From a virus: a stretch of DNA of 64,000 nt. Every line of letters starts with the position of its first letter. Positions within the stretch are counted from its first letter, which is position 1. The stretch spans positions 10,867-74,866 of IMG/VR virus record IMGVR_UViG_3300037155_000072; one strand, written 5' to 3'. The notes beneath the pieces are model-generated. The model ran no database searches. It was not told the origin of the DNA and saw nothing but the letters and a program-made list of their open reading frames with translations. Below are positions 36,948 through 49,957 of the stretch, one piece after another. The position numbers and the translations under genes were made by a program.

Positions 36948-37514
36948 TTAACCTTTCGCGGCATAGCCACAAAGCTTTCTCCGGAGAGCCTTCGCCACCG
37001 AGGGGGTAAGAGAGGACAGGGTTTTGCAAAAGTTCTGGCGGCGTTCTATTTCGTTCTCGATTGCTTCCCACAACGCGTCGAGCCCGGCCACGTGCAGCTC
37101 AATAGCGGACATCTGGCGCTCCAGAAGAACGAGAGTTGTTTTCTGCGCCGGAACTCGGGAGTCCAGCACCGTGCCGCGCCGTTGAAAAAGCTTGTAGGCG
37201 CGCTGGGCGTTCTCTCGTGTCGCACAAACCCGGTGCAAACGCCGGTCCAGTTTCTCCCAGGTCAGTGACTGGAGACGCACCGAGACTTTCTGCTCTTGGG
37301 GAATTGCAACCCGCTTGGACTCGAATACCGTAGCTCGTGCCTCGCGCCAAGTCTTTCGTTCGCTATTGGTTGAGTGTGCCAGGGGCGCACAAAGCATTTC
37401 TGTCGCGACTTCCTTGGGCAGGTGGTCTTTATCCACGATTTTGAGTTGTTCGCCCCGGTTCCGTTGGTTGACGAATTCGGCATCCCGTCGATTTTGATTA
37501 ATGTGATTATTCAT
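36948..37514 (-). CDS. Hypothetical protein
   Basis: ORF in operon. Confidence 0.5.
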   Translation of the reverse strand: MNNHINQNRRDAEFVNQRNRGEQLKIVDKDHLPKEVATEMLCAPLAHSTNSERKTWREARATVFESKRVAIPQEQKVSVRLQSLTWEKLDRRLHRVCATRENAQRAYKLFQRRGTVLDSRVPAQKTTLVLLERQMSAIELHVAGLDALWEAIENEIERRQNFCKTLSSLTPSVAKALRRKLCGYAAKG

Positions 37515-38493
37515 TTGTATTAGTTTTGTTTGTGTCTTGTTTGTTTAAAATCTCCACCTCTTTGAAAACTGTCCAGCCCGAGGTGAGTTTGCCGAGATAC
37601 CATTGCGCGAACCCTTGAACTACCCCTCGGAGAATTCCCTGTTTAAACTCTGCGAAAAGTTCTTGCTTAATCCAATCAGACTCCTCGGCAAGTAAATCGG
37701 TTTGGAGCTCGGCGATGAGCGGACCGATGTCTTTGGCTTCCTGTTTCAAGACGCCCTGTTCGCGGAGGTGCTGCACGGCTTTCAACCACCGGGCTTCCGT
37801 TCGTAGCTTCTTGGTCAGCTTTTCACCAATCGGACCAAATCCAGCCTCCCCCTTCGGGTGCGCTTTGAACCCCATTTTTTCTTTGAACTTGTCGCTGACT
37901 ACCTTGGCCGTCATCGGATGCCCGGGGCGCTCGCCGTGGGATTTCGAATAGTTCTTGAGCACGAAGCCCTCGATTTTACAGCCTCCGAGGCTCGACTCAA
38001 GGTGTAGTAACGTCGAGGAAAAATCCGCGGTCGGTGCGGGCTGCCCATGCCACAGCCTCGCAACTACCTCCAGGCCCAAAAACATAGCGTGACGTTCCTT
38101 CTCCGCCACGTCCAGATATTCCCCGGAGGAGTCGATAACGTCGAACAGCACCAGATTGCCCTTCGGCACCCGGCCGTATGTTAGGACGTTATGCTTCGGC
38201 TTGGCAAGGAATTCGCATTGATACGTCCAGCCCTCGCTTAGCACCGCGTCTTTAAAGCAGCGATGCGCGGATTCGACAGCGAGTTTAAACATGCCGGGAT
38301 TTTCTTGGTCAATCACGGTGGACTTGCTACGGCAAATAAGCGCCATGAGTGCCCCCGTCATGGAATAGGCATCGGGCGCAACATTAAACGAAAATTGGCT
38401 GCCGTCGTATTTCTCTTCAACGACGACGGTGCCGTCGAGGATACCGGCGGTGTGCCGTTCGCCCAGGCGATATATTTTTGGTATTGTAGTCAT
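37507..38493 (-). CDS. ATP-dependent RNA ligase (Rnl2-like)
   Basis: EEKYDGSQFSF, EF, LFDV, IEGFVLK, AKVVSDKFKE nucleotidyltransferase motifs. Confidence 0.8.
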   Translation of the reverse strand: MTTIPKIYRLGERHTAGILDGTVVVEEKYDGSQFSFNVAPDAYSMTGALMALICRSKSTVIDQENPGMFKLAVESAHRCFKDAVLSEGWTYQCEFLAKPKHNVLTYGRVPKGNLVLFDVIDSSGEYLDVAEKERHAMFLGLEVVARLWHGQPAPTADFSSTLLHLESSLGGCKIEGFVLKNYSKSHGERPGHPMTAKVVSDKFKEKMGFKAHPKGEAGFGPIGEKLTKKLRTEARWLKAVQHLREQGVLKQEAKDIGPLIAELQTDLLAEESDWIKQELFAEFKQGILRGVVQGFAQWYLGKLTSGWTVFKEVEILNKQDTNKTNTNE

Positions 38494-38497
38494 AATC

Positions 38498-38803
38498 TCA
38501 AAGAACCGCTGACACATTATCAGACTCTACCGAAGGTGCAACCCCTATTTCACTGATTTCTACGATTTCAGTTTCGATAATAGGTTGGTTAAGTTCAGCA
38601 CAGAAATCTACTGCCACCTTTACCAGCCGGTCAAACACGAACGGGGGCACCACGTAACCGCACGGGCCGCCCGAGGATGAAATGATTATTTTCTCCGGAC
38701 CGTTCCATCCATAAGAGATTTGACCGTGCTTAAACTCCTCGCGCAAGACAGAGATTTCGTAGTAAGTCCCCGAGCATCCGAAAACATTGACTTTCCATTT
38801 CAT
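38498..38803 (-). CDS. Hypothetical protein
   Basis: ORF in operon. Confidence 0.5.
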   Translation of the reverse strand: MKWKVNVFGCSGTYYEISVLREEFKHGQISYGWNGPEKIIISSSGGPCGYVVPPFVFDRLVKVAVDFCAELNQPIIETEIVEISEIGVAPSVESDNVSAVL

Positions 38804-45504: not shown

Positions 45505-45552
45505 TTGTGGTTTTTCGGGGTTGTGGTAACGTATGGATAGTTCTTTGTCAAT
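45505..45552 (+). promoter_or_regulatory. RNA-operon promoter plus boxA-like element
   Basis: TTGTGG-N16-(TGg)TAACGT; GTTCTTTGTCAAT at 45540, repeated at 46183. Confidence 0.5.
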
Positions 45553-45628
45553 CGCGGGGTAGCTCAGAGAAAGAGCACCGGGGTGTATTCCCCGGAGGTC
45601 GGAGGTTCAATTCCTTCTCCCGCGACCA
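45553..45628 (+). tRNA. Atypical tRNA, 8-nt anticodon loop (GTGTATTC; possibly GTA)
   Basis: Full cloverleaf, TTCAATT T-loop, A-CCA; anticodon arm CCGGG-GTGTATTC-CCCGG. Confidence 0.7.
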
Positions 45629-45637
45629 ATTTTAAAT

Positions 45638-45714
45638 TGCGGGGTGGAGCAGCCTGATAGCTCGTCGCGCTCATAACGCGAAGGTCGGTGGTTTAAATCC
45701 ACCTCCCGCAACCA
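45638..45714 (+). tRNA. tRNA-CAT with initiator-like body
   Basis: TCGCG-CTCATAA-CGCGA; fMet-like D arm; U1:A72 paired; CCA. Confidence 0.85.
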
Positions 45715-45718
45715 ATTT

Positions 45719-45790
45719 GGGCGGTCGTCTAACAATGTAGGACACCGGTCTTGACCGGAAAAGTAGGATTCTAAACCTGCCCGCCCGCCA
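45719..45790 (+). ncRNA. tRNA-like RNA with 4-nt anticodon loop (CTTG), Gln-like
   Basis: GGGCGG/CCGCCC-G-CCA, D stem, CCGGT-CTTG-ACCGG, GTAGG/CCTGC T arm. Confidence 0.65.
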
Positions 45791-45798
45791 ATCTAATC

Positions 45799-45947
45799 GC
45801 CGGGACTTTCCTCCCTTAAGTGGAGAGAATATGCGATACCGCTCCAAGGCCCGGCAACCTGGAGCGCGCCACTCGAAGGCGTAGTTGACTGGAGCCGAAA
45901 CGTAGAAGTTCGAGGACCGGCCGTCAGGGGCACGATACGCTCCACCA
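45799..45947 (+). ncRNA. Unassigned structured RNA ending in stem + CCA
   Basis: GCCGGG/CCCGGC; TGGAGCG/CGCTCCA-CCA-ATTT. Confidence 0.5.
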
Positions 45948-45950
45948 ATT

Positions 45951-46182
45951 TCCCCGTGCGGGGATGGAGTCACAAAAGCAGTGTGGCGCGAGTCGCACGC
46001 ATACAAAACTCCGGCGGCCCTTATTGGCCGGAAACGCGGCGGAAGTCTCCCTCGAAAGGGGCACAGGAAACCGCTGCGACAATTTAAGGCTAGCTGGAGC
46101 CTAAAACCGAGCCCGGCGTGTTTCAATTCTACTGAGCTCTGTCGCCGGTTTCAAGCAATCAGAGCCTGTGATTTTTCGGTTT
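45951..46182 (+). ncRNA. Unassigned structured RNA(s)
   Basis: Successive helices TCCCC/GGGGA, GGAGT/ACTCC, CGCGGCGG/CCGCTGCG with GAAA-capped hairpin, AAACCGA/TCGGTTT. Confidence 0.45.
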
Positions 46183-46197
46183 GTTCTTTGTCAATTT

Positions 46198-46535
46198 GGG
46201 CGTGAACTGGTTTCGACTTTGTCGGAGCCGTAGATAGCGCATGCACAGGATGTCTCGTTGGCCTGTTTAAACACCGAGGCAAAACATAAATGCTAAAAAC
46301 TCCGTAATGGAAGTGATTGACGCAGGTATGCAGTTGTTCGATATGTGTGCTCGGCCGGTCCGTGTCGCTGTTACCAACGGCGCGCGGGCAGTGAAGCAAA
46401 GCATCCGAGTCCAGTCTGGATTCGTTTCAGTGCCGTCAATGGCCTGATGGTGGAGGTAGGTAGTTCGGTAAGCATGTAAATCGTTTTCGAAAGCAGCGAC
46501 AAAACACGCGAGTTCGAATCTCGCCACGTCCACCA
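46198..46535 (+). ncRNA. ssrA: tmRNA with 51-codon tag ORF (46292-46447)
   Basis: GGGCGTG/CACGTCC-A-CCA with G3.U70; GGTTTCGAC; GCATGC/GCATGT helix 2; pk1; ATAAAT-GCT resume context; GCGAG-TTCGAAT-CTCGC T arm. Confidence 0.9.
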
Positions 46536-46537
46536 TT

Positions 46538-46725
46538 TCCCCGGGGCTGCAATCCTGGGGAGTATCGTGAGGGAAGTAATACGAGGGCCACCTACCCGGG
46601 AAAGGTAAGGTTCGTTAAAAGTCCTTCACAGCACCGGAGTAAAGGCCATAGAGAAACGAAGCACGTGAACTTCGGTCTCGGGCTCACACGAACAGCCTAT
46701 TCGACTCGTCACCTTCTCCGGTCAA
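46538..46725 (+). ncRNA. Unassigned structured RNA(s)
   Basis: TCCCCGGG/CCTGGGGA; GTGAGGGA/TCCTTCAC; ACCGGAG/CTCCGGT enclosing two hairpins, then CAATTT. Confidence 0.45.
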
Positions 46726-46731
46726 TTTTTT

Positions 46732-46814
46732 GGTCCGATAGTGTAAGAGCCTCTAAGCACAGCCAGGTGTTAACCCGGATTGGAGGGGCATTGCTCAAGC
46801 CTCACGGACCGCCA
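46732..46814 (+). ncRNA. tRNA-like RNA (GTT/Asn-like) with non-canonical T arm
   Basis: GGTCCG/CGGACC-G-CCA; GTGT/GCAC D stem; TGTTAA loop; GAGG/CCTC enclosing 13 nt without TTC. Confidence 0.55.
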
Positions 46815-46820
46815 ATTTTA

Positions 46821-46963
46821 TGGCCGACTAGTTTAATGGGATAGAGAACGCACGCGCAGGGAATAGACCACAAGTGTCCGGAGTTATATACCCGGCCGCC
46901 GGGAACCGTTTGGATGAAATCCGAATTCGCGTGAATGCCAGTTCGACTCCGGCTCGGCCACCA
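46821..46963 (+). ncRNA. tRNA-like RNA with 71-nt insertion in anticodon arm
   Basis: GGCCGA/TCGGCC-A-CCA; D arm; CACGCG[46857-46927]CGCGTG; TTCGACT T loop. Confidence 0.7.
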
Positions 46964-46968
46964 ATTTT

Positions 46969-47097
46969 ATGACACCACAAGTTTTCACCGTCGTCGCGGG
47001 CGCGCTCATCTACCTCGCGGCAAAAACAGTTTACTACGTTGCCGTCATCGCCGCGGGAATCGTGGTTGCCCGATTCTGCAAGTGGGGTGACTCCTAG
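46969..47097 (+). CDS. Small membrane protein (holin-like?)
   Basis: 42 aa, almost wholly hydrophobic. Confidence 0.45.
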   Translation: MTPQVFTVVAGALIYLAAKTVYYVAVIAAGIVVARFCKWGDS

Positions 47098-47663: not shown

Positions 47664-48554
47664 ATGGCACTTGTTCTCTCGGCATCGGACTCGGCACGCA
47701 TCCAGTGGGTTATCGACAACCTCATCACCGGAAGCGCGGGTAAATTCATCGACAGCACCTCAATCGAACAGCTCGCTCTCGTCTTCGGGCAGGAATGCGG
47801 TTTTCGATGTGGTTGCCCAGGCACTTTTCAAGAAGGCATGCGGGATACACCCTTCGCTACGCTTTTAACGGCGATGCTCTGCAAGAACATCACCCCAGCC
47901 CCTAACCCCATTGTTCCCGTCGTCCAGCTTCCGTGCGTGGACCTGTTGACCGCGAAGACCTATGCGATTTTGGCCAACACCGCAGTCACGAATACCGGCG
48001 CTTCGGTAATCAACGGGGACCTCGGCATCTCTGCGGGTAGCGCAGTGACCGGTTTCGATGTAATCGACGCAGGCCCGGGCCACGTGAACGGGGCTTACCA
48101 TATCACCGACGCGGCGGCTGCACAGGCCAAGCTCGACTTGACGGCCGCGTATCTCCTCGCCCAGGGGCTCACCCCCTCGACTCTCATCGCCGCCGACATC
48201 GCGGGAATGACCATCACTCCTGGAAACTACTTCGCTTCTTCAAGCTTGCAGGCCAGCACCAGTGTCACGTTCGACGGTCAGAACAACCCGGCCGCGTGTT
48301 TCGTGTTCCAGATTGAATCGAGTTGGGAACTGATGAGCGGCGCGTCTATCAACCTGATTAACGGTGCCCTGGCGTCCCGTATTTTCTTCAAGGTCGGCAG
48401 CTCCGCGACCCTAGACACTACGTCGTCAATGCAAGGAAATATCCTGGCGCTCACTTCTATCTCTGTGCTGACCGGCGCGCAGGTTCATGGCCGGTTGCTC
48501 GCGCGCAACGGCGCGGTGACATTACAAAGTAACACAATTTCCATTCCTGCATGA
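47664..48554 (+). CDS. Ice-binding protein (DUF3494 / IBP-1 fold)
   Basis: YAILA..AVTNTG.S.INGDLG; AQAKLDLTAAY; TITPGNY; FVFQI; NGA.ASRIFF.VGSSATL; GRLLARNGAVTL.SNTI. Confidence 0.9.
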   Translation: MALVLSASDSARIQWVIDNLITGSAGKFIDSTSIEQLALVFGQECGFRCGCPGTFQEGMRDTPFATLLTAMLCKNITPAPNPIVPVVQLPCVDLLTAKTYAILANTAVTNTGASVINGDLGISAGSAVTGFDVIDAGPGHVNGAYHITDAAAAQAKLDLTAAYLLAQGLTPSTLIAADIAGMTITPGNYFASSSLQASTSVTFDGQNNPAACFVFQIESSWELMSGASINLINGALASRIFFKVGSSATLDTTSSMQGNILALTSISVLTGAQVHGRLLARNGAVTLQSNTISIPA

Positions 48555-49237: not shown

Positions 49238-49957
49238 ATGAAACGAGCAATCGCATACATCCGCGTGTCCGGCCTCGGGCAGGCGGACAAGGACGGCGAA
49301 TCCCGTCAATCAGAATCCATCCGCACCTTTTGCGTCACCAACGGGCTCCAGTATTGGGAGCAGCGGTTCGAGGTAATCTCGGGCACCGTCGAAGGGCTCG
49401 ACAGGCCAGTCTTTTCGGAGGTGCTGGAGTTGATTGCCAGTCAAGAAGATGCCCCGAACGTGGAGCACCTGGAGGCTCTTCAGAAAACCGACCGGCCGTG
49501 TATCGTGGTGGAGCGGATGGACCGATTTGCCCGCGATTTGATGGTCCAGGAACTCCTATTGCGCGAGTGTCGCGAGAGGGGTATCGAGGTTTACGCGGCC
49601 GACCAGCCGTTTATCGACATCGCCTCAGACCTGGGCGACCCTACCCGGAAGCTTTTTCGTCAGATTCTTGGGGCGCTCGCGGAGTGGGAAAAATCGGCCC
49701 TGGTGCTGAAACTCCGCAAGGCCCGCGACCGCAAGCGCGCGGAGACCGGCCGGTGCGAGGGGGTCCTTCCCTACCACCTCACGGCGGAGGGTATGGCGGT
49801 TATCAAGCGGATTGAAGCGGGCCGCGAATCAGGTGTAAGCGTTCCGGGGATTGCCCGGCGTTTAAACGAGTCGGGATTAACAACGCGAAACGGGAAGGGA
49901 TGGACTAAGCGAGCCGTCCTTCGCGTTTGGCAAAAATGGAAAGGTGTTAGAACATGA
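49238..49957 (+). CDS. Serine recombinase (resolvase/invertase family)
   Basis: AIAYIRVS..GQ; SG...DRP; ERMDRFARD; C-terminal IARRLNESG.TTR.GK.W. Confidence 0.9.
   Translation: MKRAIAYIRVSGLGQADKDGESRQSESIRTFCVTNGLQYWEQRFEVISGTVEGLDRPVFSEVLELIASQEDAPNVEHLEALQKTDRPCIVVERMDRFARDLMVQELLLRECRERGIEVYAADQPFIDIASDLGDPTRKLFRQILGALAEWEKSALVLKLRKARDRKRAETGRCEGVLPYHLTAEGMAVIKRIEAGRESGVSVPGIARRLNESGLTTRNGKGWTKRAVLRVWQKWKGVRT

What the first reader, a model, noticed from the sequence alone, without database searches (positions are those of the whole stretch)
45505..46963. 1.4-kb multi-RNA operon of tRNA-like RNAs with remodelled anticodon arms
Seen: about 10 structured units in tandem, most followed by the same CA(A)TTT-type trailer. 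Only one of five cloverleaves (CAT) has a canonical 7-nt loop. The others keep acceptor and D stems and an encoded CCA but carry 8-, 4- or 6-nt loops or a 71-nt insertion. Stems are mostly still paired and the changes concentrate in the anticodon arm, which argues against random decay. Inference: a phage ncRNA system of tRNA mimics, either decoys or inhibitors of anticodon nucleases (PrrC/PARIS/retron-type defences), aminoacyl carriers, or tRNA-scaffolded RNAs, acting with the tmRNA and the Rnl2-like ligase.
Basis: partly seen in the sequence, partly recalled or inferred. Interest (0 to 1): 0.85.

Follow-up and report, generated by a model that had tools for sequence, protein, structure and literature searches.

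The report
Phage operon of anticodon-less tRNA mimics
A 75-kb peat-soil phage has a 1.4-kb gene-free stretch that encodes an initiator-type tRNA, a tmRNA and several tRNA-shaped RNAs that keep their stems and CCA end but have lost a usable anticodon loop; related phages keep the same kinds of RNAs, so they look like working tRNA mimics, not junk, though their job is untested.

Summary
Window 45505-46970 (+) has no coding signal. It is a head-to-tail row of RNA units, nearly all ending in (C)CA followed by ATTT: 9 such sites on this strand against about 0.7 expected.

Rfam and ARAGORN recognise only three units:
- tRNA-Met(CAT), initiator-like
- a tmRNA
- one tRNA with a 6/8-nt anticodon loop

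The other cloverleaf-like units (U3, U9, U10, U4b) keep their acceptor stems and an encoded CCA (U3, U9 and U10 also D and T stems). In place of an anticodon loop they have a CUUG-capped hairpin, an irregular 6-nt loop, or a 64-71-nt insert; U4b has no anticodon arm at all.

Related ~60-75-kb phages have variable RNA islands built from the same unit families. Their acceptor and anticodon stems covary, while the anticodon arm is repeatedly capped (GGCA, GUGA, GAAA, CUUG) or expanded. This argues against neutral decay.

Best reading: a polycistronic stable-RNA operon matured by the host tRNA pathway (RNase P, and an RNase E-type cut at AA|UUU). Its tRNA-like products are non-decoding mimics. A decoy or pseudo-substrate role against tRNA-binding host proteins is inference only. 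No link to the RNA ligase or the tmRNA was shown.

Earlier notes of this scan describe similar arrays in other phages. I know of no published description beyond T4 RNAC/RNAD and the Lak phage "intron" tRNAs.

The parts
45506..45552 (+). Leader with the conserved box GTTCTTTGTCAAT directly before the first RNA 5' end. A second copy lies at 46167-46197, before the tmRNA.
   Evidence: Direct repeats D3, D8 and D14. A (G)TTCTTTGA/T-type box sits 0-8 nt before the first unit (3-4 nt before the tRNA-Met or tmRNA 5' end) in G008, G002, G018, G027, G051, G014 and G006. No sigma-70-like promoter on the + strand.
45553..45628 (+). U1: tRNA-like RNA. All four stems are perfect and the T loop is canonical (TTCAATT). 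The D loop has no GG. The anticodon arm is a 6-bp stem with a 6-nt loop (or 5 bp with 8 nt). Encoded ACCA, then ATTT.
   Evidence: ARAGORN 'tRNA-??? (gtat)'. Rfam tRNA 51 bits with an insertion in the loop. Parsed. In other peat strains the loop carries a 1-nt deletion (45584) and T>G (45588). The relative in G022 has an 8-nt loop and no CCA.
45638..45714 (+). U2: tRNA-Met(CAT), initiator-like (A11:U24 D stem, weak U1-A72 pair, G-C-rich anticodon stem). The only canonical decoder in the island.
   Evidence: About 88% identical to annotated tRNA-Met genes of phage records. A tRNA-Met(CAT) is the sole or anchor tRNA in most of the relatives inspected.
45719..45790 (+). U3: tRNA-like RNA of family A. 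The D arm (TCGTCTAA..AGGAC) is of tRNA-Gln/Glu type. It has a 6-bp acceptor, G73 and CCA. The anticodon stem is capped by CUUG. The D loop has no GG and the T loop is non-canonical (8 nt).
   Evidence: The MFE fold is a cloverleaf, z -2.76. ARAGORN finds it only at ps80, with a 2-base anticodon. Homologues occur in G003, G014, G018, G022 (two), G027 and G041. The D arm matches canonical phage tRNA-Gln/Glu.
45799..45855 (+). U4a: stable hairpin domain.
   Evidence: Folding of 45799-45858 gives z -2.93. No homologue identified.
45860..45947 (+). U4b: acceptor-stem and CCA RNA (family D) with a non-tRNA interior. The 3' end is ..GCTCC-A-CCA, then ATTT.
   Evidence: Folds with a terminal 7-bp stem next to ACCA, but z is only -0.26. 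A similar 3' end (GGGGC.YG.TA..TCCACCAATTT) occurs in G005 and G014.
45952..46082 (+). U5: four-hairpin RNA ending in GA-CAATTT (no CCA).
   Evidence: MFE equals the centroid, z -2.88. Strain variants fall in a tetraloop, in a linker, and once in a stem.
46086..46197 (+). U6: spacer carrying the second leader box. Not a structured unit.
   Evidence: z +0.25. Repeats D3, D8, D14 and D19.
46198..46535 (+). U7: tmRNA (G3.U70 acceptor, ACCA end, then TTT).
   Evidence: Rfam RF00023 77.3 bits, gathering score 47. Not called by ARAGORN. Homologue in G008 at 75 bits. The shared reading frame LFDMCARP shows synonymous changes.
46539..46628 (+). U8a: two hairpins. Weak.
   Evidence: z -1.05. No homologue identified.
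46634..46721 (+). X: conserved three-way-junction RNA with invariant GGCCAYAGAGAAAC and CTCKTCACC. Ends in T-CAATTT.
   Evidence: Five distinct phages. The outer helix and hairpin P2 differ in sequence but stay paired. z -2.04. No Rfam match at E<=10.
46732..46814 (+). U9: tRNA-like RNA. It has a 6-bp acceptor, G73 and CCA, an expanded D loop, an irregular anticodon-position arm (6-nt loop), and a 5-bp T stem with a 9-nt loop.
   Evidence: Weak match to the family model R1 (16 bits, E 0.5). z -1.09. Two strain variants, both in or beside loops.
46821..46963 (+). U10: tRNA body of family B (D arm TAGTTTAA..) with a 7-bp acceptor and ACCA. A 64-71-nt folded insert replaces the anticodon loop.
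   Evidence: ARAGORN with introns allowed: 'tRNA-Pro(GGG)', intron 64 nt. The 'spliced' loop would have A33, so it is not a plain intron. No group I intron match. Relatives of family B carry 3-, 6-, 9- or 14-16-nt loops or two-hairpin inserts at the same place.
37507..38517 (-). RNA ligase-family gene. Context only; no link to the island shown.
   Evidence: Pfam PF09414 E 1.7e-12. PHROG RNA ligase. No PDB relative by sequence or profile. Present in many phages that lack the island.

Best explanation
SHOWN: window 45505-46970 is a non-coding, tightly packed row of RNA genes on one strand. It holds an initiator-like tRNA-Met, a tmRNA, four to five tRNA-shaped RNAs (U1, U3, U9, U10, U4b) and further folded RNAs (U4a, U5, X). 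Almost every unit ends in (C)CA followed by AUUU, and the next unit starts 0-9 nt later. The tRNA-shaped units keep paired acceptor stems and an encoded CCA (U1, U3, U9 and U10 also D and T stems). None of them has a 7-nt anticodon loop, and most have also lost the D-loop GG and the canonical T loop. The same unit families recur in related phages, with different but complementary stem sequences and with anticodon arms that are capped by tetraloops or expanded by inserts.

INFERRED, processing: the row is transcribed as one or two precursors, each starting at a GTTCTTTG-box leader. Host tRNA-maturation enzymes then cut it: an RNase E-type cut at AA|UUU just after each CCA (this fits the RN|WUU preference known for E. 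coli RNase E), 3' trimming to CCA, and RNase P at each acceptor 5' end. The products would be stable RNAs of roughly 55-145 nt, plus the 338-nt tmRNA.

INFERRED, function, weakest step: the tRNA-shaped products do not decode. They act as tRNA mimics through their acceptor/T minihelix, CCA end and family-specific D arm. They would occupy a tRNA-binding protein, most plausibly as uncleavable pseudo-substrates or sponges for host tRNA-targeting defence enzymes. Units with inserts (U10) may also use the tRNA body as a stabilising scaffold for the inserted RNA domain.
For: Non-coding, packed layout:
- Searches show no coding signal.
- Trailer enrichment: 9 observed against about 0.7 expected.

Only one canonical decoder:
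- Rfam and ARAGORN results.

Stems intact, loops not:
- Parsed and folded units.

Family A:
- Six members have six different acceptor sequences.
- 97% of positions pair with their own partner strand, against 48% with another member's strand.
- For the anticodon stem the figures are 100% against 37% (hand-curated stems).
- Caps are CUUG, GGCA, GUGA and GAAA in four lineages. One relative has a long hairpin insert. Two relatives (G014, G018) have a 7-nt UUU loop.

Family B:
- RNAalifold recovers the acceptor helix, with compensatory double changes in 5 of 10 pairs.

Model-based alignment of 42 hits, both canonical and non-canonical:
- 94.9% of cells pair, against 62% in shuffles and 36-51% when partners are slid.
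- 20 of 21 pairs have a change on both sides.
- The 28 non-canonical rows still pair at 85% despite some misalignment.

Strain variants in peat runs:
- 7 of 9 fall in loops or linkers, including an indel plus a SNP inside the U1 anticodon-position loop.

Products, not just separators:
- Consecutive tRNA-like units have nothing between them (U1|U2|U3, U9|U10; four units in a row in G022).

Published background:
- RNase E cuts 1-3 nt after an encoded CCA in polycistronic tRNA precursors (abstract of PMC2190699, seen).
- Phage tRNAs can counter anticodon nucleases (PMC10264068, PMC11464382, PMC11555353, listed).
Against: - There are no RNA data at all. No listed sequencing run is RNA, so transcription, processing sites and stability are inferred.
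- No promoter or terminator was found by consensus scan on the + strand.
- Several units are not significant by folding energy.
- The stems for one search were chosen by hand. The CM alignment is fitted to the structure and includes ordinary tRNAs.
- Families have only 5-7 members in the clade.
- Two strain variants break pairs without compensation: G70A in tRNA-Met and T>C in a U5 stem.
- Island content differs greatly between relatives, and many relatives have only one tRNA. This also fits gain and decay of tRNA genes.
- Loss of the D-loop/T-loop elbow contacts is what decay would produce.
- Nothing ties the island to a defence system. The host is unknown.
Confidence: 0.45

Rival explanations
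1. Processing and stability modules. The tRNA-like units serve only as RNase P/RNase E handles ('tRNA punctuation'). They release and stabilise the real products (tRNA-Met, tmRNA, X, U5, the insert of U10) and create the 5' ends of the downstream mRNAs.
For: - Every unit, including those not shaped like a tRNA, ends in the same AA|UUU site.
- The last trailer runs straight into a start codon. In the window, CCAATTTT is followed by ATG at 46969. In G008, the tmRNA's CCAATTT is followed by the ATG of an HNH gene.
- G005 keeps only a 40-nt acceptor minihelix with ACCA. That is enough for RNase P but little else.
- U10, one G027 unit and one G022 unit look like natural 'tRNA scaffolds' holding inserts.
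Against: - Runs of adjacent tRNA-like units with no cargo between them (U1|U2|U3, U9|U10; G022) are not needed for punctuation.
- D arms are conserved in sequence within families.
- Anticodon stems are kept and capped instead of being deleted.
Confidence: 0.2
2. Decaying tRNA gene array. The units are pseudogenes of tRNA-Gln/Glu/Lys-, Asn/Asp- and other tRNA genes acquired by the phage lineage. They have no function of their own.
For: - Rfam does not recognise U3, U9, U10 or U4b even at E<=10.
- The elbow nucleotides (G18 G19, T-loop TTC) are lost.
- Presence and number vary between relatives.
- Some strain variants are uncompensated.
- A pattern scan of IMG/VR finds many canonical tRNA-Gln/Glu with the same D arm, alongside scattered defective look-alikes.
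Against: - All stems of U1 and U3 are perfectly paired while every loop deviates.
- Acceptor and anticodon stems have changed on both strands between phages whose ligases are only 40-55% identical.
- Four lineages carry 4-nt caps of stable tetraloop types or close to them, in place of frayed loops.
- The CCA and trailer are retained.
- 1.4 kb of dead DNA is unlikely to persist in a compact 75-kb phage that recurs nearly unchanged in peat runs from 2019 to 2025.
Confidence: 0.15
3. Unusual but real decoders. The 8-nt-loop unit would be a frameshift or quadruplet reader. U9 would be a suppressor-like tRNA. U10 would be an intron-containing tRNA spliced with the help of the phage RNA ligase.
For: - ARAGORN gives U1 a 4-base anticodon and U10 a tRNA-Pro(GGG) with an intron.
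- The phage has an RNA ligase-family gene.
- Lak megaphages have tRNAs with unexplained inserts (PMC6784885).
Against: - The U1 loop differs by an indel and a SNP between strains, and in size between relatives.
- The U3 family has 4-nt caps.
- 'Spliced' U10 would have A33 and a mismatched T stem.
- No group I intron match.
- No kinase/phosphatase partner for the ligase was found.
- The ligase occurs without such units in relatives.
Confidence: 0.05

Closest known systems
Phage T4 RNAC and RNAD (species 1 and 2 stable RNAs of the T4 tRNA region)
   Same: Both are small stable RNAs of unknown function made from a phage tRNA gene cluster alongside true tRNAs. PMC9697503 calls them RNAs 'of yet unknown functions'. 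That they are matured by tRNA-processing enzymes is from my own knowledge.
   Different: T4 has eight decoding tRNAs and two extra RNAs. Here one decoder is accompanied by four to five anticodon-less tRNA shapes, a tmRNA and other RNAs.
Phage tRNAs that evade or neutralise tRNA-targeting defences (T5 tRNA-Lys against PARIS; tRNA-Tyr against retron effectors; anticodon-loop variants)
   Same: Both are phage-encoded, tRNA-derived RNAs in variable clusters whose changes concentrate in the anticodon loop (PMC10264068, PMC11464382, PMC11555353). Two relatives of U3 (G014, G018) do have a 7-nt UUU loop with unusual flanking bases.
   Different: The published cases are functional decoders that replace cleaved host tRNAs. 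The units here cannot decode (4-, 6- or 8-nt loops, or inserts), so they could act only as decoys or pseudo-substrates. That has not been shown for any phage RNA that I know of.
'Intron'-containing tRNAs of Lak megaphages (Devoto et al. 2019, PMC6784885)
   Same: Phage tRNA genes with conserved, unexplained inserts in the anticodon region, too short and unlike group I introns. U10 has 64-71 nt at that place.
   Different: The Lak cases were read as tRNAs with a normal anticodon after removal of the insert. Removing the U10 insert does not leave a canonical loop. Its family members carry different inserts or short loops at the same site.
tmRNA tRNA-like domain, and YrlA (bacterial Y RNA with a tRNA-like module)
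   Same: Both are RNAs that keep an acceptor/T-arm half of a tRNA plus a CCA end and replace the anticodon arm with other structure. A true tmRNA sits in the same operon.
   Different: The tRNA-like units lack the G3.U70 alanine identity pair (read). YrlA scores 24 bits against a gathering score of 69, and that match spans two adjacent tRNAs. No Ro60/TROVE gene is present.
tRNA-like candidate structured RNAs catalogued from IMG/VR (PMC10690425)
   Same: That paper reports tRNA-like candidate RNAs in uncultivated phages and notes that non-canonical tRNA shapes probably exist.
   Different: The text I read describes five candidates that overlap ARAGORN tRNA predictions. It does not describe arrays, anticodon-less designs or these families.

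Membership tests
tRNA (Rfam RF00005, decoding tRNA) | Scores at or above the Rfam gathering threshold (29 bits) | tested here: met
   Met for U1 (51.2 bits) and U2 (56.8 bits) only. U3, U4b, U9 and U10 give no tRNA match even at E<=10.
tRNA (Rfam RF00005, decoding tRNA) | 7-nt anticodon loop with U33 on a 5-bp stem | tested here: not met
   Met only by U2. U1 has 6 or 8 nt. U3 has 4 (CUUG) or 6 nt. U9 has an irregular 6-nt loop. U10 has a 64-71-nt insert, and A33 if 'spliced'.
tRNA (Rfam RF00005, decoding tRNA) | Elbow contacts: G18 G19 in the D loop with a TTC-type T loop | tested here: not met
   U1 has a canonical T loop but no GG in the D loop. U3 has neither. U9 has an expanded D loop and a 9-nt T loop. 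U10 has GGG and TTCGACT, but one T-stem mismatch.
tRNA (Rfam RF00005, decoding tRNA) | Paired acceptor stem followed by a discriminator base and CCA | tested here: met
   U1 7/7, U2 7/7, U3 6/6, U9 6/6, U10 7/7, U4b 6-7 bp. All have an encoded NCCA.
tmRNA (Rfam RF00023) | Gathering score reached, G3.U70 acceptor pair, ACCA end | tested here: met
   77.3 bits against a gathering score of 47, over the full model length. Acceptor GGGCGTG/CACGTCC. ARAGORN does not call it. No phage SmpB.
YrlA / Y RNA with Ro60 | Rfam RF02553 gathering score (69 bits) and a neighbouring Ro60 (TROVE) gene | tested here: not met
   24 bits, spanning U1 and U2 together. No TROVE match in the whole phage genome.
GOLLD / ROOL / other large phage ncRNAs in Rfam | Any Rfam match over the region | tested here: not met
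   No match apart from tRNA and tmRNA at the gathering score. Only chance-level hits at E<=10.
Group I intron-containing tRNA | Intron of group I type in the anticodon loop that leaves a canonical tRNA after excision | tested here: not met
   The insert is 64-71 nt. There is no Intron_gpI match. The 'spliced' loop is CAGGGAT, with A at position 33.
T4 RNAC/RNAD-type stable RNAs | Made from the tRNA cluster transcript and matured by RNase P and 3' trimming | not testable with these tools
   The layout fits, but no RNA reads exist for this phage and no T4 reference was compared.
Anti-defence tRNA decoy (proposed class, not an established family) | Binds or blocks a tRNA-targeting host defence enzyme | not testable with these tools
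   No host, no defence system and no assay are available. The only support is a variable, arms-race-like island and loss of the anticodon loop.

The most novel reading that the evidence does not exclude
Phages of several lineages encode a class of anticodon-less tRNA mimics that has not been described in print. These are tRNA bodies whose anticodon loop has been deliberately closed (tetraloop caps) or replaced by cargo. They would be made in bulk through the tRNA maturation pathway and would act as uncleavable pseudo-substrates or sponges that blunt tRNA-directed bacterial immunity (anticodon nucleases, or enzymes that modify the CCA end). This island, with its initiator tRNA, tmRNA and the unknown X RNA, would be an RNA-only counter-defence and translation-rescue cassette.
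Probability: 0.25. Interest if true: 0.85.

Novelty: new variant of a known kind. Interest (0 to 1): 0.62.

Why it matters
Phage tRNA genes have recently been recast as weapons against bacterial enzymes that cut or block tRNAs. All proven cases, however, are working tRNAs.

A conserved set of tRNA-shaped RNAs that cannot read codons, yet keep stems and a CCA end under selection, points to a second strategy: mimicry instead of replacement. It would also give a reason for the many 'pseudo-tRNAs' that annotation pipelines discard in phage genomes.

The island also supplies concrete objects for experiment:
- three unit families (A, B, X), two of which have relatives outside this clade
- a predicted processing code (AA|UUU after CCA)
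- a natural analogue of the engineered 'tRNA scaffold' used to stabilise recombinant RNAs

If instead the units turn out to be inert, the result still matters: it would show how far tRNA genes can drift while keeping helices.

Tried and rejected
I reached relatives through a ligase alignment instead.
- Neighbouring small proteins gave no related loci.
- An exact 23-mer of U10 has no match in IMG/VR.
- The phage collection (INPHARED) holds no relative of the island beyond the tRNA-Met.
- No RNA holder was listed among sequencing runs. The laid runs were contigs only, so they say nothing on expression or RNA ends.
- The host search by a conserved tmRNA 28-mer and 20-mer gave nothing or chance hits with no tmRNA. 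The host stays unknown.
- I considered a 5S-rRNA-like reading of X (GGCCAUAG resembles loop A). I dropped it because there is no Rfam match at E<=10 on the 106-nt piece.
- The minus-strand 151-aa ORF was rejected as a gene.
- MAFFT-based consensus folding of family A failed to recover the cloverleaf because of misalignment. The model-based alignment misplaces U3 because of its 6-bp acceptor.
- The ligase has no PDB relative by sequence or profile. I did not pursue its structure.
- No SmpB, CCA-adding enzyme, AAA_33 kinase, Pth or Ro60 in the phage genome.
I repeated that step using coordinates, for family B only. The fold table for families C and D was left out.
- The T4 genome review (PMC150520) is not held.
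Full report
WHAT THE WINDOW IS

The window is bases 10867-74866 of a 74,866-bp IMG/VR virus record rated 100% complete. It is a tailed phage. It carries:
- a family A DNA polymerase, helicases, a DUF2800 nuclease and an RNA ligase-family gene (37507-38517, minus strand)
- endonuclease VII, a small serine recombinase, a tail-fibre-like protein and an ice-binding-like protein

Near-identical DNA is held by at least ten peat and permafrost metagenome runs from 2019 to 2025. None of them is RNA.

CHECKING THE OBSERVATION

The sequence of 45505-46970 is a head-to-tail row of units on the + strand.

The trailer:
- CAATTT or CCATTT occurs nine times on that strand within 1.34 kb.
- The other 68 matches in the rest of the window predict about 0.7 (Poisson about 1e-7).
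- Each site lies directly after a unit's 3' end.

What the standard tools call:
- ARAGORN and Rfam find only U1 (45553-45628, 4-base 'anticodon'), U2 (45638-45714, tRNA-Met CAT) and a tmRNA (46198-46535, 77 bits).
- At relaxed settings ARAGORN draws U3 (45719-45790) as a cloverleaf with a 2-base anticodon, and U10 (46821-46963) as a tRNA with a 64-nt insert.

Folding:
- U3 folds as a textbook cloverleaf whose anticodon stem is closed by CUUG (z -2.8).
- U4a, U5 and X are significantly stable (z -2.0 to -2.9).
- U4b, U8a, U9 and U10 are not significant by energy alone.
- U6 is unstructured. It carries a second copy of the leader box that also precedes U1.

Coding potential: a 151-aa ORF on the opposite strand has no family and no homologue.

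RELATIVES

The ligase has hundreds of relatives, many on 60-75-kb contigs. An alignment of them fetched 80 viral loci. Whole-record searches and reading gave three results.

(a) A tRNA-Met(CAT) of initiator type is the commonest RNA gene of the clade. It is often the only one (G009/G010, G011).

(b) Several relatives have larger RNA islands: G003/G004, G005, G006, G008, G014, G018, G022, G027 and G051. In G005, G006 and G051 the island lies just upstream of the same conserved structural gene.

(c) Island content differs from phage to phage but draws on the same unit families. The units usually end in CCAATTT. The islands begin with a (G)TTCTTTGA/T box 0-8 nt before the first unit (3-4 nt before the tRNA-Met or tmRNA 5' end where that comes first). 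In G018 and G027 the box is preceded by a TTGAC(A/G)-17-GATATG promoter-like site.

Only G008 has a full tmRNA (75 bits).

THE UNIT FAMILIES

Family A (U3) shares the D arm TCGTCTAA..AGGAC. An IMG/VR pattern scan shows this to be the D arm of canonical phage tRNA-Gln and tRNA-Glu. Members lie in G003, G014, G018, G022 (two), G027 and G041.
- Their acceptor stems are all different yet paired.
- The anticodon position holds CUUG (window), GGCA (G003), GUGA (G022), GAAA (G041), a 43-nt hairpin insert (G027), a larger insert (G022a), or a 7-nt loop with UUU (G014, G018).
- D loops lack GG and T loops are non-canonical, except in G041.

Family B (U10, perhaps U9) shares a TAGTTTAA-type D arm. At the anticodon position it carries a 9-nt loop (G008), a 7-bp stem with a 3-nt loop (G014), a 14-16-nt loop (G003), a 6-nt loop (G022), or the 64-71-nt insert (U10).

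Family C (U1) has an anticodon stem extended by one pair. Loops are 6 nt (window), 8 nt (G022) or 9 nt (G003).

Family D (U4b) shares only the 3' portion ending in TCCACCAATTT.

X is a separate RNA that is not tRNA-like. Invariant GGCCAYAGAGAAAC and CTCKTCACC close a three-way junction whose helices differ in sequence among five phages. It has no Rfam match.

IS IT DECAY?

Evidence against decay:
- In hand-curated stems, each member pairs with its own partner strand far better than with other members' strands. Family A acceptor: 97% against 48%. Anticodon stem: 100% against 37%. T stem: 100% against 81%. Family B acceptor: 92% against 69%.
- RNAalifold on family B recovers the acceptor helix, with double changes in 5 of 10 pairs.
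- A covariance model built from family A found 42 cloverleaves in the held loci. Across them 94.9% of cells pair, against 62% in shuffles and 36-51% when partners are slid. 20 of 21 pairs have changes on both sides.
- That set includes ordinary tRNAs and is fitted to the model. The 28 non-canonical rows alone still pair at 85%, despite visible misalignment of some rows, U3 among them.
- Among nine differences seen in other peat strains, seven fall in loops or linkers. These include a deletion plus a substitution inside the U1 anticodon-position loop. Two break pairs without compensation.

The helices, the CCA and the trailer are therefore maintained. The anticodon loop is free to vary, or is actively closed. 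Four independent tetraloop caps are hard to reconcile with neutral erosion.

Evidence that fits decay:
- the loss of the elbow nucleotides
- the patchy distribution of units among relatives
- the small family sizes

I keep decay as a live rival at about 0.15.

HOW IT MOST LIKELY WORKS

Processing is inferred from layout and from established knowledge. In E. coli, polycistronic tRNA precursors are first cut by RNase E 1-3 nt after each encoded CCA, and RNase P then makes each 5' end (abstract of PMC2190699). From my own knowledge, RNase E prefers RN|WUU. The trailer CCAA|UUU, and CAA|UUU in the units without CCA, fits that preference.

Every tRNA-like unit offers the acceptor/T minihelix plus RCCA that RNase P needs. 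The phage encodes no CCA-adding enzyme, SmpB, AAA_33-type kinase, Pth or Ro60 of its own, so host enzymes must do the work.

The function is open. Three points argue that the units are products in their own right and are read by some tRNA-binding factor:
- adjacent tRNA-like units have nothing between them (U1|U2|U3, U9|U10; four in a row in G022)
- D arms are conserved within families
- anticodon stems are kept and capped

They cannot decode. I therefore favour tRNA mimicry. The most economical version is a pseudo-substrate or sponge for host tRNA-targeting defence enzymes. Three things suggest it:
- the island is variable and accessory-like
- the parent tRNA types (Gln/Glu/Lys-like, Asn/Asp-like) are among the usual targets of such enzymes
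- phage tRNAs are known to counter such enzymes (PMC10264068, PMC11464382, PMC11555353)

This step is pure inference.

The scaffold or punctuation reading is a serious rival for the units with inserts and for the junctions with ORFs. The last trailer runs directly into an ATG both in the window (46969) and in G008 (HNH gene).

- No known large ncRNA family matches.
- The ligase is a divergent PF09414 member with no PDB relative. It lies 7 kb away on the other strand and is found in many phages without the island. No functional link is shown.
- The tmRNA is real. It appears to carry an unusually long tag frame: LFDMCARP is conserved against G008 with synonymous third-position changes, and both frames end in A-stop. 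That is a separate finding.

COMPARISON WITH WHAT IS KNOWN

The nearest published things are:
- T4 RNAC/RNAD, stable RNAs of unknown function from the T4 tRNA region (PMC9697503)
- the 'enigmatic introns' in Lak megaphage tRNAs (PMC6784885)
- tRNA-like candidate RNAs listed from IMG/VR (PMC10690425)
- tmRNA and YrlA, as RNAs that keep half a tRNA

None of these describes arrays of anticodon-less tRNA bodies with capped stems.

Earlier notes of this same scan report similar arrays in other phages: e1-5948225, e1-3435479, e1-5666539, e1-150752 and e1-4039731. I took them as leads only.
- The Pth-neighbour lead does not hold here.
- The Lak lead was checked in the paper.

VERDICT

- It is a phage stable-RNA operon whose tRNA-like members are conserved non-decoders.
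- The function is unknown. Mimicry or decoy is the best guess, at about 0.45 for the whole reading. Identity and structure are firmer, at about 0.8 in my estimate.
- It is a new variant of a known kind, of moderate to high interest (0.62).

Noticed in passing
window 46634-46721; L084:1195-1281; L094:1178-1264; L097:1829-1931(-); L126:5215-5303(-): X RNA. An apparently undescribed three-way-junction RNA with invariant GGCCAYAGAGAAAC and CTCKTCACC and sequence-divergent helices. Found in five phages, beside the tRNA-Met or the tmRNA. No Rfam match.
   Followed up: partly
L085:1501-1584, L086:1501-1567, L087:1501-1577, L088:1501-1584: More distant ligase-bearing phages encode 67-84-nt 'mini-tmRNAs'. 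They have a complete tmRNA-type tRNA-like domain (G3.U70, GGUUUCGAC-like D analogue, T arm, CCA or CAA), but only a short hairpin where the tag template and pseudoknots should be. They score 42-53 bits on RF00023.
   Followed up: partly
window 46198-46535 and L084:1311-1621: The phage tmRNA seems to carry a very long tag frame (about 51 codons; about 40 in G008). An internal LFDMCARP block is conserved through synonymous changes, and both frames end in A-stop.
   Followed up: partly
window 45541-45552 and 46183-46197; L084 ~1296-1310; L098 ~1441-1455; L126(-) ~2760-2775: A conserved leader box, (G)TTCTTTGA/T followed by a few A/T, sits 0-8 nt before the first unit of each island (3-4 nt before the tRNA-Met or tmRNA 5' end where that comes first). 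In G018 and G027 it follows a TTGAC(A/G)-17-GATATG promoter-like site. It could be an RNase P leader or a processing signal.
   Followed up: partly
L109 ~997-1033: G005 has a roughly 40-nt hairpin that keeps only the tRNA-Met acceptor stem, a CTCATAA loop and ACCA. The 7:66 pair has changed on both sides relative to the window's tRNA-Met (G.U to U-A).
   Followed up: no
window 46964-47090; L084 1618-1960: The last RNA trailer runs straight into a start codon: CCAATTTT-ATG of a 40-aa membrane-like ORF in the window, and CCAATTT-ATG of an HNH endonuclease gene after the G008 tmRNA. Cutting at AA|UUU would leave nearly leaderless mRNAs in a phage that brings its own initiator tRNA.
   Followed up: no
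window 49238-49957; L084 345-975; L141 ~900-1230: A small serine recombinase (resolvase/invertase type) lies next to the RNA island in the window, in G008 and in G011. HNH/AP2-type homing endonuclease genes sit inside or beside the islands of G008 and G014.
   Followed up: no
L180:8100-9100: An unrelated 205-kb IMG/VR phage has a tRNA array that includes a family-A-like unit with a capped anticodon stem and a CCAATTAT trailer, followed by a family-B-like unit. These unit types are therefore not confined to this clade.
   Followed up: partly
window 47664-48554: An ice-binding-like (DUF3494, PF11999, E 4e-55) protein in a peat/permafrost phage, 0.7 kb downstream of the island.
   Followed up: no
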